Below are positions 1-6,043 of a stretch of 6,043 nt of DNA, one piece after another (within the stretch, counting starts at the first letter, position 1; every line of letters starts with the position of its first letter). Where the stretch lies: assembly GCA_048939465.1 (NCBI GenBank), contig JBHLPL010000114.1, positions 1 to 6,043 of the forward strand, written 5' to 3'. A model generated the notes under the pieces. That model saw nothing but the letters and a program-made list of their open reading frames with translations, made no database searches and had not been told where the DNA came from. The DNA is from Promethearchaeota archaeon. Its GTDB lineage: Archaea > Asgardarchaeota > Odinarchaeia > Odinarchaeales > JBHLKK01. The position numbers and the translations under genes are program-made.

Positions 1-1747
1 AGAATTCAATCTTCTTTCGGGTATCATTAACGTATGGGTTTGTATCATTATATGTCTCCCAGAAACCGGATGAGTTATCGGCTCCACTTAGGATAGTCAT
101 GATGGTAGGGGTTCCTGTCAGAGTTATATTGACATAAACTACGCCAGGTTCAAAGCCAGGCTTCAATAAATAGACCTTGGCTGTGTAGTTACCTCCAGTC
201 ATTCCTGTGGTGAAAAGCTCTATAGTGTAATTACCTCCGCTGTTCCACGCGAAGTCAGGCTCTCCTCCTTCCCATGGGCTTTGAGTGTCATTATCCAAGG
301 CTGCCACTTGACTCAGATTAGTTATTCCTTGGGATGGAATTAAATCTGTTCGGTTATATTGGACATCAAAAAAGGCGGAATTACCGACTATTGTGTAGCC
401 AGGTTGACTAAGGACCTCAGCATCTGTGGAGACGTATCCGTAGACTAAAAGTCGTCCATTTTGGTCGCTCTCTGAAATGCCTAATCCGTTATTTGGTCCG
501 GCTTTTCCCACCATTAACTCTGTTAAGCTATCGTTATCCGCGTCCCAGCACGTAATGTGGTTAAAAGGTCCTGCCTGCGTTCCAATCCACCCAATTTGCG
601 GGTCTTCCAGTTCTAGGCTGGTCTGAAGGGGATCCCACTCGTATACGGAAAGATTACCTTCAATCGTGGTTGAAATCAGCTCATTCCTGATGTCATCATC
701 CGAATCTATTATCTTAAGACCCCAGACATGTGAAGAACCCCCAATGGATAGACTCTCAAGCAGATCATAATCGTTCTCAGCAACACTTACCAAGACTTTG
801 ATAACTCCAGTGTCTTCACCCACAACTAGCTCATTTTTGCCATCTTCATTGACGTCTCCGACCGCCACGCCATAGCTGGTTCCTACGTTATTCTGCAGTT
901 GTGGGTCATTATCAGAATCCCATTCTTCAACATACGTAGAACCGTTGACAACTATTATCCTCCCATCTATGTGAGCTACAATCTCCTTCTTTCCATCGTT
1001 ATCAGGATCCCCTATGACAGCTGTATAGCTTACCTCATTTTGATACAACTTAGGCTGAACTTTGTTCCGAGTCTTTGTGTTTGATCTGCTCCAATCTCCA
1101 GGATAATCTTGAAAAAGGGTCTCGCTTAATACATATATCTCCCCATCATGAGATGTGCTTTCACCGTACGCCGGGAGGCCACTGACAAATATTATTTCAT
1201 TTTCACCGTCGTCATCTAGATCCTCAACAATTATGGTTGTAACAATTCTATCTTCCTCCCACAGCTCTATGTCCTGTTTGAAGACAAAACCCGAACCGTT
1301 CCATTCTAGGATCGTTACGTGACCTAGATTGCCTACCAGTACATCTTGTGAAGAGGGGTTCTTGTTTATTTCGCCTAAAGCAATTGAGTAGATTCCGGTT
1401 TGGTCCGCACCGAGTTTAAGATTAAGAGACCCTATACTAACGTTCAAAACATGACTGTACTGGTTATCGCTTCCATTATAGATGTACAGCTTTCCACTAT
1501 CGGAACCGGTCAATATCTCAAAAGCCCCATCATTACCCAAGTCTCCCACCAGCACAGGAATGGCGGCATTATGGATTGTGGAGGGGTTGCTCAGGCTCTG
1601 ATTGAACTCTAGATAAGTAGGAATATAATAAGACGATAGGGTTTGACCTGTAATCTGAGAGGAAGGAGTAGCAGATACGCTGGAAGAGATAAGCACTATT
1701 GAGAGGACAAGTAGTCCTATTGATGGTATTTTTTTCGAGAGTCTCAT
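1..1747 (-). CDS. Secreted/cell-surface FG-GAP (VCBS-like) repeat beta-propeller protein with downstream Ig-like region; partial, continues beyond position 1 (>=582 aa)
   Basis: Manual translation of the minus strand gives an unbroken frame from ATG at 1747-1745 (upstream in-frame TAA, SD-like GAGGG) to the window edge. The N-terminus MRLSKKIPSIGLLVLSIVLISSSVSA is a Sec signal peptide. Seven repeats follow: VLVGDLGNDGAFEILTG, IALGEINKNPSSQDVLVG, IIVEDLDDDGENEIIF, AVIGDPDNDGKKEIVA, VAVGDVNEDGKNELVVG, LKIIDSDDDIRNELIS, ITCWDADNDSLTELMVG. After them is beta-rich sequence (GGNYTIELFTTGMTGGNYTAKVYLLKPGFEPGVVYVNITL). Confidence 0.93.
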   Translation of the reverse strand, partial: MRLSKKIPSIGLLVLSIVLISSSVSATPSSQITGQTLSSYYIPTYLEFNQSLSNPSTIHNAAIPVLVGDLGNDGAFEILTGSDSGKLYIYNGSDNQYSHVLNVSIGSLNLKLGADQTGIYSIALGEINKNPSSQDVLVGNLGHVTILEWNGSGFVFKQDIELWEEDRIVTTIIVEDLDDDGENEIIFVSGLPAYGESTSHDGEIYVLSETLFQDYPGDWSRSNTKTRNKVQPKLYQNEVSYTAVIGDPDNDGKKEIVAHIDGRIIVVNGSTYVEEWDSDNDPQLQNNVGTSYGVAVGDVNEDGKNELVVGEDTGVIKVLVSVAENDYDLLESLSIGGSSHVWGLKIIDSDDDIRNELISTTIEGNLSVYEWDPLQTSLELEDPQIGWIGTQAGPFNHITCWDADNDSLTELMVGKAGPNNGLGISESDQNGRLLVYGYVSTDAEVLSQPGYTIVGNSAFFDVQYNRTDLIPSQGITNLSQVAALDNDTQSPWEGGEPDFAWNSGGNYTIELFTTGMTGGNYTAKVYLLKPGFEPGVVYVNITLTGTPTIMTILSGADNSSGFWETYNDTNPYVNDTRKKIEF

Positions 1748-2043: not shown

Positions 2044-2880
2044 ATGGCCCTAATAGAAATGAAGAACCTAACGTTTACCTATGCGAATAGCAGTCAACCT
2101 GCCATTCGCGACATAGACTTGGCAGTTGACAAAGGCGAATTCGTCCTGGTAACAGGTCCGACGGGGTGCGGTAAGACCACGTTCTGTCGTTGCCTAAATG
2201 GCCTTATTCCTCACTTCCATGCAGGACAGCTAAAGGGAGAAGTCTTTGTGGACGGCCTTAATACTGCCGACCATCAAGTCTATGAACTGGCACAAAAGGT
2301 TGGGCTCGTCTTCCAGAATCCGGAAAATCAGTTGGTCGCCCTAAATGCCCGGCGAGAGCTTGCCTTTGCCCCAGAGAATCTAGGCCTGCCCAGAGAGGAA
2401 ATTGAGAAACGCGTTGAAGAAACGCTTGACGTTGTTGACATTCAAGACTTGAGTGAAAAGGCGCCTTATGAAATGTCTGGGGGAGAGCAACAACAGGTTG
2501 CTATCGCCTCCCTCCTTACGCTGAAGCCCAAGATTCTTGTTCTAGATGAGCCGACATCAAATCTTGATCCGGTAAGCGCAAAGCATATTCTGGAACTTCT
2601 GAACGGATTGAACAGACGCTCCGGAATAACGATAATTCTTATCGAACATCGTCTGGAGATGGTCTCAAAGTATGCTGATCGCGCAATCATTCTAGATAGA
2701 GGTAGAGCAGTTTTGGATGGCAACCCTAGGGAAGTCTTCTCAACAGATTTGGTTGAAGAGCTGGGCATAGGAGTTCCAAAAATTGCCCAGCTTTTCAAGA
2801 TTTTGAAGCGAAAAGGCCTCGATATGAACATTCCTCTATCCGTGGAAGAGGCAAGAGACATGTTACTGAGGTTAATCTGA
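2044..2880 (+). CDS. ecfA1: Energy-coupling factor (ECF) transporter ATP-binding protein A
   Basis: Walker A GPTGCGKT, Q-loop FQNPENQ, signature MSGGEQQQV, Walker B ILVLDEPT and H-loop IEH. GGAG SD at 2032-2035. It is followed by a second ATPase and EcfT. Confidence 0.95.
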   Translation: MALIEMKNLTFTYANSSQPAIRDIDLAVDKGEFVLVTGPTGCGKTTFCRCLNGLIPHFHAGQLKGEVFVDGLNTADHQVYELAQKVGLVFQNPENQLVALNARRELAFAPENLGLPREEIEKRVEETLDVVDIQDLSEKAPYEMSGGEQQQVAIASLLTLKPKILVLDEPTSNLDPVSAKHILELLNGLNRRSGITIILIEHRLEMVSKYADRAIILDRGRAVLDGNPREVFSTDLVEELGIGVPKIAQLFKILKRKGLDMNIPLSVEEARDMLLRLI

Positions 2881-2881
2881 A

Positions 2882-3709
2882 ATGATCCAGACAGAAGACC
2901 TATGGTATACTTACCCCAATGGCGCTCAGGCCCTAAAAGGGATATCACTAGAGATTCGTGACGGTGAGGTTGTAACGGTACTTGGTGAAAATGGTGCAGG
3001 AAAGACCACTCTTATGAAGCATTTCAATGGACTGCTTAGGCCTCAGCAAGGTAGGGTTCTGATTGACGGTATAGACACCCGAACCATGTCTGTTGCGCAG
3101 CTAGCCAGAACGGTTGCCTTCGTTTTTCAGAACGCAGATTATCAGCTCTTCAGCGAAACCGTTGAGAAAGAGCTATTATTTACCCTGAGAAATCTTGGTT
3201 TTGATGAAAATGCCGCCGGAGAGCGGATTGACAAAACTCTAAAACTCCTTGATTTGGAGGGCTACCAGAGCAGGTCTCCCTTTGCGCTAAGTGGTGGCGA
3301 GCGAAAGAGAGTTGCGCTGGCTTCCGTTATATGCGCCGATCCAAAGATGCTGATATTAGACGAACCGACGATAGGCCAGGATGCTTCTCAGAAAAGAAGA
3401 CTGGCCCAGTTAATTGAGGAGTTCGGGGGGGCAGGAAGGACGATTTTCGTTGTAACGCACGATGTTGAGTTTGCTGTTCGGAACTTTCCCAGAGCAATCA
3501 TTATGGCAGGCGGTCGTATTGTTGCAGATGGCCCTTCAAAGAAGGTTTTAACAAAATCAAACATTTTAGATGTTGCAGGTCTTCTACCTCCGCAGATAAC
3601 TGAGCTCTCCTTGAAGCTGAATGAAGTAAAGAAAACCTTTCCGAAGAATCTAACTACACCGGATGAACTGGCCTCATACATACTCCAAAATATGGGGGGA
3701 AGACAATGA
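2882..3709 (+). CDS. ecfA2: ECF transporter ATP-binding protein A'
   Basis: Walker A GENGAGKT, Q-loop FQNADYQLF, signature LSGGERKRV, Walker B LILDEPT and H-loop THD. Starts 1 nt after the ecfA1 stop. Confidence 0.95.
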   Translation: MIQTEDLWYTYPNGAQALKGISLEIRDGEVVTVLGENGAGKTTLMKHFNGLLRPQQGRVLIDGIDTRTMSVAQLARTVAFVFQNADYQLFSETVEKELLFTLRNLGFDENAAGERIDKTLKLLDLEGYQSRSPFALSGGERKRVALASVICADPKMLILDEPTIGQDASQKRRLAQLIEEFGGAGRTIFVVTHDVEFAVRNFPRAIIMAGGRIVADGPSKKVLTKSNILDVAGLLPPQITELSLKLNEVKKTFPKNLTTPDELASYILQNMGGRQ

Positions 3710-4479
3710 GCGAAAGAGCGATTTCTCTATTTGAAGCTTTCAGATTCAAGAGAAAAAATACCCCCATACATAACCTAGACCCCAGGGCAAAGCTCTATCT
3801 TGCGATTATTGCCTCAGCGATTAGTCTAATATTTGCAGAGCTTGTACTCCTTGTTATCCTCCTGCTGTCCCTTATTCCCATAATTGCTGTGGCCGGATCC
3901 ATAAGGGAATGGGCGAAAAGCATGCGCGGATTGGTCATATTTATGGTCTTCATCGCAGTCATAAACACAATCTTCACAACGATTACCTTTGCCGTAGCAA
4001 TGGTTACCCGTCTGGTGGCATTGATGACGGCATTTTCAATATTTTTCCTAACAGTCCATCCGGACGATCTGGCTCAGGCTCTTATCCAGATGCGAATCCC
4101 CTTTAGTTTTGCTTTCGCCATGAGCATGGCAATACGATACGTACCCACAATAGCACAGGAGGCGCAAACCATAAGAGAAGCTCAAATGTCTCGAGGCTTA
4201 GAGCTAGAACGGGGAAATATCATCAAACGCATCAGGAATTTCATTCCGATAATTGTGCCGCTCATCATAGGCTCGATAAGAAGAGCATTGTCGGTTGCCG
4301 AAAGCCTTGAAAGCCGAGCTTTTGGCTCCACAAAAAACAGGACTTATCTATACCCCCTTAAAATGGGAGTAAAGGATTATGCAGTAATCGTCATCTTAAC
4401 GTTTATTCTAATAGGCCTAGTTTACATACGGTTCTTTGTGGGTTTGCCATCATGGGCGTATTGGACGCTACCCTTCTAA
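3706..4479 (+). CDS. ecfT: ECF transporter transmembrane component T (CbiQ/EcfT family)
   Basis: N-terminal IHNLDPRAKL motif, hydrophobic helices, RYVPTIAQEAQTIREAQMSRG and LESRAFG coupling-helix X-R-X motifs. ATGA overlap with the ecfA2 stop. Confidence 0.95.
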   Translation: MSERAISLFEAFRFKRKNTPIHNLDPRAKLYLAIIASAISLIFAELVLLVILLLSLIPIIAVAGSIREWAKSMRGLVIFMVFIAVINTIFTTITFAVAMVTRLVALMTAFSIFFLTVHPDDLAQALIQMRIPFSFAFAMSMAIRYVPTIAQEAQTIREAQMSRGLELERGNIIKRIRNFIPIIVPLIIGSIRRALSVAESLESRAFGSTKNRTYLYPLKMGVKDYAVIVILTFILIGLVYIRFFVGLPSWAYWTLPF

Positions 4480-4523: not shown

Positions 4524-5123
4524 TTGGTGAGTCCCTTGGTCGTGTATCTCTCACCTAGCTGGAATCAAATATATTCTATGTTACTGGAGCTTTCTGAAAA
4601 AATCCACGGGAGTAACTTCAAGCCAGACATTATTCTGGGAATAGCAAGAGGCGGATGGGTAGTCGGTAGAATAATGTCTGATCTCCTCTCAAATAAGCAT
4701 ACTGCCAACCTGAAAATCGAATTCTACACAGACATTGCAAAAACTGCAAAAACACCAAAAATAACCCAACCCGTCTCAACTGACGTAAAAGACAAACGTG
4801 TACTGGTTTGTGATGATGTATCAGATACTGGAAAGAGTTTGGCAGTCGCTGTGGAATACCTAAAGGAAAAGGCTACAAAGGAGACAAAGGTTGCCTGCCT
4901 TCACAAAAAATCATGGTCCATCTTTACGCCCGACTTCTACATTGCCGATACAGATGACTGGGTAATCTATCCTTGGGAGGTAAAGGAAACCATAGATATG
5001 ATCGTGAAAAGAATGAAAGAAGAAGGCAAGAGTAACCAAGAAATAATCGAAGAATTGAATAGGACTGGAATTGATCCGCCCGTCCTAAGCTATTTTATAG
5101 AGAATCTGGCTCTTGAAAAATGA
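4524..5123 (+). CDS. Type I phosphoribosyltransferase (purine PRT-like, hypoxanthine/guanine/xanthine type); start uncertain (TTG 4524, GTG 4527, TTG 4536 or GTG 4542)
   Basis: PRPP-binding motif VLVCDDVSDTGKSL, PPi loop ILGIARGG and the C-terminal PDFY...WVIYPWE motif. The GGTGAG at 4526-4531 favours a start at 4536 or 4542. Confidence 0.9.
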   Translation: MVSPLVVYLSPSWNQIYSMLLELSEKIHGSNFKPDIILGIARGGWVVGRIMSDLLSNKHTANLKIEFYTDIAKTAKTPKITQPVSTDVKDKRVLVCDDVSDTGKSLAVAVEYLKEKATKETKVACLHKKSWSIFTPDFYIADTDDWVIYPWEVKETIDMIVKRMKEEGKSNQEIIEELNRTGIDPPVLSYFIENLALEK

Positions 5124-5724
5124 GGGCTATACTTTGATCATAAAAACGATTGAAGAATCCGATTTTGGCAAGAAGTTTGTGAGTATTACTGCTGTAACCA
5201 ATCATAAATTCGAGCAGTCCGATTTGTTTCAGGAACTGGGGCAACTCTCCCAAGGACTAAATGTGGTTTTCCAAGTTTTTGACGCCGATTATGTCGCCAC
5301 ATGGGAACACCTGTTTTTTGCAACGCTTCACGCTCTGAAAGCATTTGAGCAAGGGAGAAACATCTCAGATAAAACAGAGGTTGAAATACTTCTATACGCG
5401 TCTGCCCAACGCCAGATTGGCCTGGCATTAGAACTAGCTGGCATAAAATCTGATACTAAACATATAGCTCTAATAGCAGTAGGCGATACCCAGAGAGTAG
5501 TTGAAGTGGGAGTCGCTAAAGTGATTAAATCTATGAAAGGTATCGAAAAAGACGAACTTTTAGATATACAGAATGAAGAGAAATTCTCAAAGCTCTGCAA
5601 ACTCTTCAACATAGGTGAGGAAGAGCTGACTGCGGTAATTGTGTCAAAAAATTGGAAAGATCGAGTTGATGGGCTCAAAAAGATAGTTCTGGATAGATCA
5701 GCACTGCTTGCTGTTGAAAAGTAA
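5113..5724 (+). CDS. cgi121: KEOPS complex subunit Cgi121 (likely true start TTG 5134)
   Basis: Family-typical segments QVFDADYVATWEHLFFATLHALKAFEQGRNIS, EILLYASAQRQIGLALELAGIK and C-terminal DRSALLAVEK. GAGGG at 5122-5126 sits 7 nt before TTG 5134. Confidence 0.88.
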   Translation: MKNEGYTLIIKTIEESDFGKKFVSITAVTNHKFEQSDLFQELGQLSQGLNVVFQVFDADYVATWEHLFFATLHALKAFEQGRNISDKTEVEILLYASAQRQIGLALELAGIKSDTKHIALIAVGDTQRVVEVGVAKVIKSMKGIEKDELLDIQNEEKFSKLCKLFNIGEEELTAVIVSKNWKDRVDGLKKIVLDRSALLAVEK

Positions 5725-5870
5725 ACTACCCCACCTATCGGATGGAGCTTATAGCTGTGCTCGGTATCAGCCCTATGCCGTTGGGCATAATTTCAACCTC
5801 ATCACACGCTAAATCATGGGCTTGTTTACAAAAGCCCAGCCCGGTGATCCGCGTATAGCGTTGGGCTATG
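5701..5870 (-). ncRNA. Predicted TnpB omegaRNA/reRNA: scaffold ~5870-5721 plus guide ~5720-5701
   Basis: Established biology: the TnpB guide RNA overlaps the tnpB 3' end and right end, and takes its guide from flanking DNA. Seen here: hairpins TGGGCTT/AAGCCCA (5817-5838), TATGCC/GGCATA (5774-5789), AGCCC/GGGCT (5863-5867 with 5838-5842) and the terminal hairpin 5729-5747. Boundaries are approximate. Confidence 0.65.
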
Positions 5871-6043
5871 TTTCTTGCACCGTTCAGATCGGAGTTGAGG
5901 GTGTGTCCGCACACCTTGCATTGGAAGAATCCTACATGCCGGGAAGTGTTCCTGCTGTGACACCTGTTACACTCTTTGCTAGTGTAGTGTGGCTTAACAT
6001 AGACCACTCTGATTCCTTTAAGGGTAGCTTTGTACTCCAAAAA
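5721..6043 (-). mobile_element. IS200/IS605 (IS1341-like) insertion sequence, right end; left part outside the window
   Basis: tnpB 3' end followed by TAAG-CTCCATC-CGATA-GGTGGGG-TAGTTTAC, an imperfect subterminal hairpin plus terminal TTAC. This resembles the AAGCCCC...GGGGTAGTTCAC-type right ends of archaeal IS605/IS1341 elements. No target duplication is expected for this family. Confidence 0.8.
5735..6043 (-). CDS. tnpB: TnpB (IS200/IS605-family RNA-guided nuclease; Cas12f-like fold), C-terminal part; 5'-partial
   Basis: The reverse complement reads FLEYKATLKGIRVVYVKPHYTSKECNRC...FQCKVCGHTLNSDLNGARNIA: the LEYKA helix, a TS-x-CxxC...CxxC zinc finger and the RuvC-III Asp (SDLNGARNI). Stop TAG at 5737-5735. 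The frame is open at the window edge. The track lists it as + but the protein is encoded on the minus strand. Confidence 0.92.
   Translation of the reverse strand, partial: FLEYKATLKGIRVVYVKPHYTSKECNRCHSRNTSRHVGFFQCKVCGHTLNSDLNGARNIAQRYTRITGLGFCKQAHDLACDEVEIMPNGIGLIPSTAISSIR

What the first reader, a model, noticed from the sequence alone, without database searches (positions are those of the whole stretch)
5701..5751. TnpB element right end supplies the cgi121 stop codon, and its predicted guide is the antisense 3' end of cgi121
Seen: cgi121 ends GTT GAA AAG TAA (5713-5724), and GTAAAC (5721-5726) is simultaneously the element terminus (minus strand ...GGGGTAGTTTAC). If the end is TTAC, the last base of the Lys codon and the whole stop codon are transposon-derived, so the insertion sits at the very end of a conserved t6A-pathway gene without truncating it. 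Established: the TnpB guide is the DNA immediately 3' of the right end. Here that would be UUUUCAACAGCAAGCAGUGC, entirely cgi121 coding sequence in antisense. Inference: (a) the nuclease would target element-free cgi121 alleles, i.e. homing into a conserved housekeeping-gene terminus; (b) the guide RNA is complementary to the last ~20 nt of cgi121 coding mRNA from a convergent transcript and could affect its expression or termination; (c) clean excision would rewrite the gene's last codon and stop.
Basis: partly seen in the sequence, partly recalled or inferred. Interest (0 to 1): 0.7.

Follow-up and report, generated by a model that had tools for sequence, protein, structure and literature searches.

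The report
Transposon end rebuilds cgi121 stop codon
A TnpB-type jumping gene sits exactly on the stop codon of the housekeeping gene cgi121 in an uncultured archaeon, and its last four bases rebuild the codon and stop it displaced; this is real and recurs at other genes, but it follows from known IS200/IS605 biology.

Summary
Window 5113-5724 (+) is cgi121 (Pfam CGI-121). Window 5721-6043 (-) is the right part of a 1,246-bp tnpB-only IS200/IS605 element that continues on contig C70.

Seventeen gene-less mini copies in this genome, three full-length copies in two same-genus genomes, and metagenome contigs all lose homology right after ...GTAGTTTAC. The right end is therefore base 5721.

Element-free cgi121 in both same-genus genomes ends GTT GAA AAA TGA. 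Near-identical metagenome contigs fit the same reading. The insertion changed AAA TGA to AAG TAA, so the protein is unchanged, and clean excision would reverse this.

The 20 nt after the right end (5720-5701, minus strand) are, by the TnpB rule, the guide, and they are antisense to the cgi121 3' end. Their only perfect match in the genome is this flank, which is preceded there by the element's own end and not by a TAM. Empty alleles carry ATCAT plus, by mismatch count, an unchanged protospacer.

This is standard donor-joint targeting, not a special system. An antisense effect on cgi121 is untested.

New here: the family's end (TTTAC, reverse GTAAA) regenerates stops at 6-7 of 18 copies, and 4-5 copies sit in ATGA stop/start overlaps.

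Unresolved: the left flank is a THUMP gene start. That implies either a 1.4-kb deletion or a second copy.

The parts
5113..5724 (+). The cgi121 gene (KEOPS/t6A pathway subunit). The start is probably TTG at 5113. The last sense codon AAG is at 5719-5721 and the stop TAA at 5722-5724.
   Evidence: Pfam PF08617, E 3.8e-15. It is 80% identical to orthologues in G001 and G002, including the KNEGYT residues upstream of 5146.
5721..5724 (.). The four transposon-derived bases GTAA, the reverse complement of the element's terminal TTAC. They replace the native ATGA: the third base of the Lys codon plus the stop.
   Evidence: Homology among all copies ends at TTTAC. Empty alleles read GAA AAA TGA. Three mismatches in the 5721-5727 tail of empty-allele contigs fit this.
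5721..6043 (-). The right 323 nt of a 1,246-nt tnpB-only IS200/IS605 (IS1341-type) element. The rest lies on contig C70:78-1000, joined by a 77-nt overlap.
   Evidence: C70:1-77 is identical to window 5967-6043. The joined element is colinear over 1,246 nt with elements in G001:C109 and G002:C101/C110.
5735..6043 (-). The C-terminal 102 codons of tnpB, with the stop at 5735-5737. They carry the zinc ribbon CNRC...CKVC and the third RuvC aspartate in NSDLNGARNIA.
   Evidence: Pfam PF07282, E 7.6e-21. Alignments to solved TnpB/Cas12f chains. The joined ORF is 381 aa and intact.
5721..5872 (-). The omegaRNA scaffold core, shared with the gene-less copies. It ends in AGTTTAC. The conserved region may extend to about 5945.
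   Evidence: nhmmer match to profile positions 156-300. A consensus structure of 31 pairs is 91.8% paired, against 38-50% when partners are slid. The covariation score is 0.271 against 0.12 or less.
5728..5748 (-). The subterminal right-end hairpin (CTCCATC...GGTGGGG), 7 nt from the element terminus.
   Evidence: Helix 8 of the consensus structure: 8 pairs, 92.8% paired across 19 copies.
5701..5720 (-). The predicted 20-nt guide and protospacer, TTTTCAACAGCAAGCAGTGC. It is antisense to the last six full cgi121 codons plus two bases of the Lys codon.
   Evidence: It lies directly 3' of the right end. Its first 16 nt are unique in the genome, and here they are preceded by GTTTAC, not by a TAM. 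Expression of the guide was not tested.

Best explanation
A 1,246-bp non-autonomous IS200/IS605-family element lies on the minus strand. It carries tnpB only (381 aa, catalytic residues intact) and has an omegaRNA scaffold overlapping the 3' end of tnpB. It inserted by the peel-and-paste route 3' of an NTCAT target motif (TAM).

At this site the TAM is the reverse complement of A+TGA, the last base of the final Lys codon of cgi121 plus its stop. The element's own terminal motif (TEM) is TTTAC. Its reverse complement, GTAAA, puts G+TAA in the same register. AAA TGA therefore became AAG TAA, and the Cgi121 protein is unchanged.

By the TnpB rule, transcription through the right end gives an omegaRNA whose guide is the adjacent 16-20 nt. 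Here that sequence is antisense to the cgi121 3' end. The TnpB-omegaRNA complex would not cut the occupied site, where TTTAC precedes the protospacer. It would cut the scarless donor joint or an element-free allele (ATCAT plus protospacer), which favours retention or homing of the element.

Shown here: the gene identities, the boundary, the empty allele, the conserved RNA structure and the insertion polymorphism. Inferred: expression and 3' end of the omegaRNA, TnpB activity, acceptance of ATCAT as a TAM, and mobilisation in trans by the single TnpA in the genome.
For: Gene identities. The RuvC residues lie in GVDLG, IEDL and SDLNGA, and both CxxC pairs are present.

Boundary at 5720/5721.

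Empty alleles: G001 and G002 read GTT GAA AAA TGA TCT. Contigs in runs X3, X6 and X8 follow cgi121 to 5727 with exactly three mismatches in the tail, then continue CTTGAGAGAC..., which resembles G001 and G002 downstream sequence. X1 has a 715-nt contig identical across the junction. X3 holds both forms, at depth 10.5 for the empty allele and 2.2 for the occupied one.

TAM: the flank 5' of the left end is TTCAT or NTCAT in most of about 33 copies, including ATCAT, GTCAT and CTCAT.

RNA structure with covariation.

One Y1 transposase gene sits on C105, in an IS whose right end (...GGAGTAGTTCAC) is almost the same as this one.

Guide uniqueness, and a TEM rather than a TAM beside it.

Donor-joint targeting and the TAM/TEM concepts: bioRxiv 10.1101/2023.03.14.532601.
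Against: The omegaRNA 3' end and guide length are not measured. TnpB activity and TAM preference are untested. The empty cgi121 site carries ATCAT, not the consensus TTCAT.

The left end assigned to this copy (C70) abuts the THUMP gene start. It does not abut the sequence that follows cgi121 in empty alleles. The present locus is therefore not a simple one-step insertion, or else the C55-C70 join links two different copies.

The letters of the empty-allele contigs at 5721-5727 were inferred from mismatch counts. They were not read directly.
Confidence: 0.85

Rival explanations
1. Adaptive junction docking. The match between target motif (reverse ATGA), terminal motif (reverse GTAA, a stop in the same register) and a Shine-Dalgarno-like GAGGTG or GGGGTG six bases inside the left end is a selected design. 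It would let this family live in stop/start junctions of operons without harming the host. On this reading the cgi121 case is one instance of a harm-minimising strategy.
For: Of 18 copies in G000, 8-9 have their TAM on the start codon of an ORF of about 150 aa or more. In 6-7 the right end gives the stop of a frame of 100 codons or more. Four (C66, C139a, C69b, C139b), plus the window copy, sit in ATGA overlaps. Among all ATGAA sites the expected shares are 3.5%, 1.8% and 0.16%; among non-genic sites they are 17%, 8% and 0.9%. In G001 and G002, 4 of about 14 right ends do the same. Every stop case converts AAA TGA to AAG TAA or TAG. The left-end bases CCACCTC are nearly invariant.
Against: Survivorship alone enriches tolerated sites. 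The gene calls used for the null were crude, based on ORFs. The sample is small, and some copies are orthologous between genomes. The conserved left-end and right-end bases are needed for TnpA recognition in any case. Intergenic insertions may be counter-selected for other reasons.
Confidence: 0.3
2. The cgi121/right-end junction is not a primary transposition junction. It would be the product of a later deletion or recombination that happened to preserve the reading frame.
For: G000 lacks the two small membrane-protein genes that lie between cgi121 and the THUMP gene in G001 and G002. Some rearrangement or a mis-join is therefore needed to explain the left side.
Against: The break lies exactly 3' of a TCAT in the empty allele and exactly at the family's TTTAC terminus. 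That is what transposition predicts, and a random deletion endpoint would rarely land there. The left flank on C70 is a perfect TTCAT. Two bona fide insertions followed by recombination between the copies explain both junctions.
Confidence: 0.07
3. The main consequence is regulatory. Read-through antisense RNA, or the omegaRNA guide, pairs with the 3' end of cgi121 mRNA and changes its stability, termination or translation.
For: The geometry alone. tnpB and the omegaRNA are convergent with cgi121, and the guide is fully complementary to its last 20 coding nucleotides.
Against: There is no RNA evidence. Every TnpB element that faces a gene has this geometry. TnpB-omegaRNA complexes are described as DNA-targeting.
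Confidence: 0.08
4. GTAA is native chromosomal sequence, and the element ends a few bases further in.
For: None beyond the a priori ambiguity of a single copy.
Against: All copies share ...AGTTTAC and diverge directly after it. The empty alleles have ATGA, not GTAA, after GTTGAAAA.
Confidence: 0.02

Closest known systems
IS200/IS605-family tnpB-only elements with omegaRNA (ISDra2 of Deinococcus radiodurans; ISGst1-5 of Geobacillus stearothermophilus, bioRxiv 10.1101/2023.03.14.532601)
   Same: A TnpB with RuvC and a zinc ribbon. An omegaRNA scaffold overlapping the tnpB 3' end and bounded by the right end. A guide taken from the flank. A pentanucleotide TAM 5' of the left end and a TEM at the right end. 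No target duplication. The scarless donor joint as the nuclease target. Mobilisation in trans by a single TnpA.
   Different: The host is an archaeon, and the motifs are TAM (T)TCAT and TEM TTTAC. The tnpB ORF runs almost to the element terminus, with its stop 14 nt from the end. The activity of this element is untested. The reverse complements of TAM and TEM both carry a stop codon in the same register, so stops are regenerated.
PATEs: gene-less IS605 derivatives of Haloquadratum walsbyi (PMC3119063) and Geobacillus
   Same: At least 17 copies of about 300 nt in this genome keep the left end, the right end and the omegaRNA region but carry no tnpB. They served here to define the boundary.
   Different: The window copy is the full-length, coding parent type. 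The searched paper does not mention stop-codon regeneration or docking at gene junctions.
sotRNAs at the 3' end of IS1341-type tnpB genes in Halobacterium (PMC4615843)
   Same: A structured non-coding RNA encoded in sense within the 3' end of an archaeal tnpB.
   Different: That paper reports ncRNAs associated with the 3' end of IS1341-type tnpB genes. Here there is only a structure prediction with covariation.
IStrons: group I intron plus TnpB elements (bioRxiv 10.1101/2023.11.20.567912)
   Same: An IS605-family element that can sit in or at a host gene without destroying it.
   Different: As I recall, IStrons reduce harm by splicing themselves out of the RNA. Here the coding sequence is kept intact at the DNA level by the element's terminal bases, and no ribozyme is involved.
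IS608 of Helicobacter pylori (TAM TTAC, right end TCAA; recalled from the literature, not tested here)
   Same: The reverse complements GTAA and TTGA also each hold a stop codon in the same register. Stop regeneration may therefore be a wider by-product of similar cleavage motifs at the left and right ends.
   Different: A bacterial element that carries both tnpA and tnpB. I did not find this property discussed in the two literature searches that ran.

Membership tests
IS200/IS605 family, tnpB-only (IS1341-type) element | A TnpB protein with the OrfB_IS605 RuvC domain and a zinc-ribbon TNB domain, with the catalytic D-E-D residues present | tested here: met
   PF01385 and PF07282 matches. GVDLG, IEDL, SDLNGA and two CxxC pairs align to solved TnpB/Cas12f chains. 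The joined ORF is 381 aa and intact. The join rests on a 77-nt contig overlap.
IS200/IS605 family, tnpB-only (IS1341-type) element | Asymmetric ends with subterminal hairpins, no terminal inverted repeats and no target-site duplication | tested here: met
   A left-end hairpin (CTCCGTCC GAAA GGACGGAG type) and a right-end hairpin (helix 8) are conserved in 17-19 copies. Flanks show no duplication.
IS200/IS605 family, tnpB-only (IS1341-type) element | A conserved 4-5-nt target motif (TAM) immediately 5' of the left end | tested here: met
   TTCAT or NTCAT in most of about 33 copies from three genomes. The empty cgi121 site has ATCAT at the predicted place.
IS200/IS605 family, tnpB-only (IS1341-type) element | A structured omegaRNA scaffold overlapping the tnpB 3' end and ending at the right end | tested here: met
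   31 pairs, 91.8% paired, 10 pairs with compensatory changes. Only 1 of 500 shuffles reaches the covariation score, and slid controls are far lower. No Rfam family matched.
IS200/IS605 family, tnpB-only (IS1341-type) element | A Y1 (HUH) TnpA transposase available in cis or in trans | tested here: met
   One PF01797 hit in the genome, C105:1180-1545 at 126.7 bits, in an IS whose right end reads ...GGAGTAGTTCAC. Whether it mobilises this element was not tested.
IS200/IS605 family, tnpB-only (IS1341-type) element | The omegaRNA is expressed with a flank-derived guide, and TnpB cleaves TAM-adjacent targets | not testable with these tools
   No RNA run holds the stretch.
CGI-121 / Cgi121 (KEOPS subunit) | A match to the family profile over the whole domain, with orthologues in related archaea | tested here: met
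   PF08617 at 56.7 bits against a cut-off of 25, covering profile positions 3-154 of 159. Homologues were found in 37 of 41 related genomes.

The most novel reading that the evidence does not exclude
This archaeal IS200/IS605 lineage is built to dock in gene junctions. Its target motif is the ATGA(A) of start codons and of stop/start overlaps. Its right terminus regenerates the displaced stop in frame, and its left terminus carries a replacement ribosome-binding site. It could therefore colonise operons, occupying roughly a quarter to a third of the ATGAA overlap junctions in this genome, at little cost to the host. If this is a selected design and not just survivorship, it would be a new harm-avoidance strategy for DNA transposons, parallel to the self-splicing of IStrons.
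Probability: 0.3. Interest if true: 0.6.

Novelty: new member of a known kind. Interest (0 to 1): 0.38.

Why it matters
For the single locus it matters little. It is a cleanly documented, polymorphic TnpB-element insertion that leaves a conserved housekeeping gene intact, and its guide and target follow the textbook rule.

The wider pattern is more useful. A transposon family whose target and terminal motifs both encode a stop codon in the same register can sit on stop codons and in ATGA overlaps without changing host proteins. This helps explain how TnpB elements and their gene-less derivatives reach high copy number in small, gene-dense archaeal genomes.

Annotators should also take note. 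Stop codons, and possibly ribosome-binding sites, of bona fide genes can be transposon-derived.

The natural pair of occupied and empty alleles, with a known 20-nt protospacer and candidate TAM, is a ready-made test case for an archaeal TnpB.

Tried and rejected
- Exact-protein look-ups of the cgi121 and THUMP proteins in public assemblies returned nothing.
- Two exact-pattern scans of JGI metagenome contigs found nothing. One used the sequence downstream of the empty allele and one used the protospacer.
- Rfam gave no family for the RNA, only chance-level hits.
- No RNA holder is listed among the sequencing runs, so expression of the omegaRNA and any antisense effect could not be examined.
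- I tried to settle whether C55 and C70 are truly adjacent. They are the only pair sharing this 77-mer, and six other contig pairs in the bin show the same kind of 77-nt overlap. The joined element is colinear with full-length relatives. But G000 has no homologue of the two membrane-protein genes that separate cgi121 and THUMP in relatives. Logan contig depths (7.7 for cgi121 against 13.1 for 5861-6043 in X1) would also fit two copies sharing part of the element. This is left open.
- The flanks of other copies seen in X1 were not found in G000.
- Boundary elsewhere, with GTAA native: rejected.
- The minimum-free-energy fold of the single window RNA including the guide pairs the guide with the scaffold. 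I gave it no weight against the alignment-based structure.

Full report
**What is in the window.** The window is the whole of contig C55 of a 1.96-Mb, 152-contig archaeal genome bin. Earlier notes of this scan call the organism an Asgard (Odinarchaeia) archaeon; I did not test that.

On the + strand, the ORF 5113/5146-5724 is cgi121 (Pfam PF08617, E 3.8e-15). It ends GTT GAA AAG TAA at 5713-5724.

On the minus strand, 5735-6043 encodes the last 102 residues of a TnpB (Cas12f1-like TNB domain, E 7.6e-21). This part holds the CxxC...CxxC zinc ribbon and the third RuvC aspartate.

Contig C70 begins with the same 77 bases that end the window. Joined, the two contigs give a 1,246-nt element with an intact 381-aa tnpB, in which the motifs GVDLG, IEDL and SDLNGA are all present. 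The element is colinear and 83-85% identical over its full length with elements in two same-genus genomes, G001:C109 and G002:C101/C110.

**Where the element ends.** The genome holds at least 17 gene-less copies of about 300 nt, of the PATE type. Each consists of a left end of about 85 nt fused to the last 215 nt or so of the element. There is also an internally deleted copy on C5.

All of these end ...GGAGTAGTTTAC and have unrelated sequence from the next base on. The same holds for about 15 copies in G001 and G002. That set includes three full-length elements whose ends read GTGGGGTAGTTTAC, as in the window. Other copies seen in metagenome contigs lose homology at 5719/5721.

**The empty site.** In G001 and G002, whose cgi121 is 80% identical at the protein level, the gene ends ...GCT GTT GAA AAA TGA TCT with no element. 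This matches the window up to 5720 and departs from 5721.

In Logan contigs of runs X3, X6 and X8, sequences nearly identical to the window follow cgi121 to 5727. Two of them show exactly three mismatches over the last 126 nt. That count is what ATGATCT against GTAAACT gives. They then continue CTTGAGAGACTTAATT..., which resembles the G001 and G002 sequence downstream of cgi121.

Run X1 holds a 715-nt contig identical across the junction. Run X3 holds both forms, at depth 10.5 for the empty allele and 2.2 for the occupied one. The insertion is thus polymorphic in natural populations.

It replaced A+TGA by G+TAA. The change AAA TGA to AAG TAA leaves the protein unchanged, and scarless excision would restore AAA TGA. 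The letters of the empty metagenome alleles at 5721-5727 are inferred from mismatch counts, not read directly.

**Target motif and guide.** The flank 5' of the left end is TTCAT in most copies and NTCAT overall. ATCAT, GTCAT and CTCAT all occur. On the minus strand the empty cgi121 site reads AGATCAT|TTTTCAACAGC. The insertion point is therefore the one expected 3' of a TCAT-type TAM.

By the established rule for TnpB, the guide is the sequence immediately 3' of the right end, and the natural target is the donor joint, meaning the TAM abutting the right flank (bioRxiv 10.1101/2023.03.14.532601). The guide would thus be the minus strand of 5720-5701, antisense to the cgi121 3' end.

Its first 16 nt occur once in the genome, at this flank. 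There they follow the element's own GTTTAC and not a TAM, so the occupied site should be immune.

The RNA scaffold is supported by a consensus structure of 31 pairs over 19 copies. It is 91.8% paired, against 38-50% when partners are slid. Ten pairs carry compensatory changes, and only 1 of 500 shuffles reaches the covariation score. No Rfam family matches it.

One Y1 transposase gene exists in the genome (C105). It lies in an IS whose right end is nearly identical...GGAGTAGTTCAC, so it is a plausible mobiliser in trans.

Expression, guide length, nuclease activity and acceptance of ATCAT as a TAM are all inferred, not shown.

**The left side is not simple.** On C70 the left end abuts CTTCAT. 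This is the reverse complement of the ATGAAG that starts a THUMP-domain gene.

In G001 and G002, cgi121 is followed by two convergent small membrane-protein genes, and only then by the THUMP gene. G000 has no homologue of these two genes.

Both junctions look like genuine transposition junctions: a perfect TAM on one side, and the exact TEM terminus next to a TCAT site on the other. The likeliest history is therefore two insertions of the family, one at the cgi121 stop and one at the THUMP start. Recombination between the copies would then have deleted about 1.4 kb. I put this at roughly 65%.

The alternative is that both copies still exist and the intervening contig was not binned, at roughly 35%. 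The 77-nt overlap is unique within the bin, and six other contig pairs in the bin show the same kind of overlap. That favours adjacency but does not prove it. None of this affects the right-end observation.

**A family habit, not a one-off.** I reconstructed the empty site for all 18 copies in G000.
- In 8-9 copies the TAM lies exactly on the ATG of an ORF of about 150 aa or more.
- In 6-7 copies the right end supplies the stop of an open frame of 100 codons or more.
- Four copies (C66, C139a, C69b, C139b), besides the window copy, sit in ATGA stop/start overlaps.
- In every stop case whose reconstructed empty site carries TGA, AAA TGA became AAG TAA or TAG. The copy with the aberrant left flank (C38) is the uncertain seventh.

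For comparison, among the 6,693 ATGAA sites in the genome, 3.5% are start-like, 1.8% stop-like and 0.16% both. Among sites outside crude ORF-based genes, the shares are 17%, 8% and 0.9%. In G001 and G002, 4 of about 14 right ends likewise end a frame of 170 codons or more.

The cause is structural. The reverse complements of the TAM (ATGA) and of the TEM (GTAA) carry a stop in the same register. In addition, the near-invariant left-end bases read, in reverse, GAGGTG (GGGGTG in the window copy) six bases before the TAM's ATG, which looks like a Shine-Dalgarno site.

My counts agree with it and add stop regeneration.

My data cannot decide whether this is adaptation or survivorship of harmless insertions. 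The enrichment over non-genic sites is P about 0.002 for junctions overall and lower for overlaps. That is suggestive, but it rests on small numbers and crude gene calls.

**Comparison with what is known.** Everything about the locus fits a new member of the IS200/IS605 tnpB-only elements, with PATE derivatives (PMC3119063) and an omegaRNA/sotRNA-type transcript (PMC4615843). Targeting of element-free alleles is the generic donor-joint mechanism, not a property of cgi121.

In two full-text searches I found no paper describing regeneration of host stop codons by the IS605 terminal motif. That does not show it is unpublished. From memory, the IS608 motifs TTAC and TCAA have the same property, which suggests a general by-product of similar left-end and right-end cleavage motifs.

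**Verdict.** Novelty is low for the locus and moderate for the family-wide pattern.

Noticed in passing
G000 contigs C66:3252-3549, C139:3766-4065, C69:28447-28752, C139:5274-5571 (loci L049, L054, L064, L065): Four gene-less copies of the family sit exactly in ATGA stop/start overlaps of gene pairs. Upstream frames are 118-500 codons and downstream ORFs 187-412 aa. Only 11 unoccupied ATGAA sites of this kind exist in the genome, so roughly a quarter to a third of such junctions are occupied.
   Followed up: partly
Left ends of all copies, e.g. L049-L065 positions 1-20; C70:981-1000 for the window element: Read on the strand of the neighbouring host gene, the left terminus is ...CTCCTTGAGGTGGTTYAG|ATGAA (GGGGTG in the window copy). 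This puts a Shine-Dalgarno-like motif six bases before the ATG of the TAM. It may replace the ribosome-binding site of the gene the element lands on.
   Followed up: partly
G001:C92 (L016) and G002:C108 (L046) versus G000 C55/C70: Two convergent small membrane-protein genes of about 150-165 aa lie between cgi121 and the THUMP gene in both same-genus genomes. G000 has no tblastn match to them. Either 1.4 kb was deleted between two element copies or the intervening contig is unbinned.
   Followed up: partly
G000:C105:1000-2860 (L068): The only Y1 transposase (tnpA) in the genome lies in a tnpA-tnpB IS whose right end reads ...GGGTGGAGTAGTTCAC. About 45 nt upstream of that region there is a terminal-only remnant, CTCTCCGCAAGAAGACTCCATCCGGAAGGGTGGAGTAGTTTAC.
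   Followed up: partly
G000:C5:939-1316 (L066): An internally deleted derivative of the window's element type, 80% identical. Its left end is fused to the last 290 nt or so, including a tnpB remnant with an in-frame TAG. It is an intermediate between the full element and a PATE.
   Followed up: partly
window 5720/5721 in public runs X1, X3, X6, X8: The insertion at cgi121 is polymorphic in mangrove and sediment metagenomes. X1 shows only the occupied allele, while X6 and X8 show the empty allele and no contig bridging the occupied junction. X3 holds both forms, at depth 10.5 for the empty allele and 2.2 for the occupied one.
   Followed up: partly
window 2044-4479 (+): Three consecutive genes look like an ECF-type transporter module: two ABC ATPases with Walker A motifs (GPTGCGKTT and GENGAGKTT) and a 257-aa membrane protein. 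The stop/start overlaps include ATGA at 3706-3709. They were not run against Pfam.
   Followed up: no
window 2-1747 (-): A secreted protein of 582 or more residues, with repeated Dx(D/N)xDG motifs (FG-GAP-like), runs off the contig start. Another note of this scan (e1-5396128) already covers it.
   Followed up: no
G000:C38:1583-1878 (L051): This copy has an aberrant left flank, TTTCAT followed by ATAT before the left end, and ATAT again just after the right end. Its right end closes a 338-codon frame, but the reconstructed empty site would read on past that point. It may be an imprecise insertion or a 4-nt duplication.
   Followed up: no
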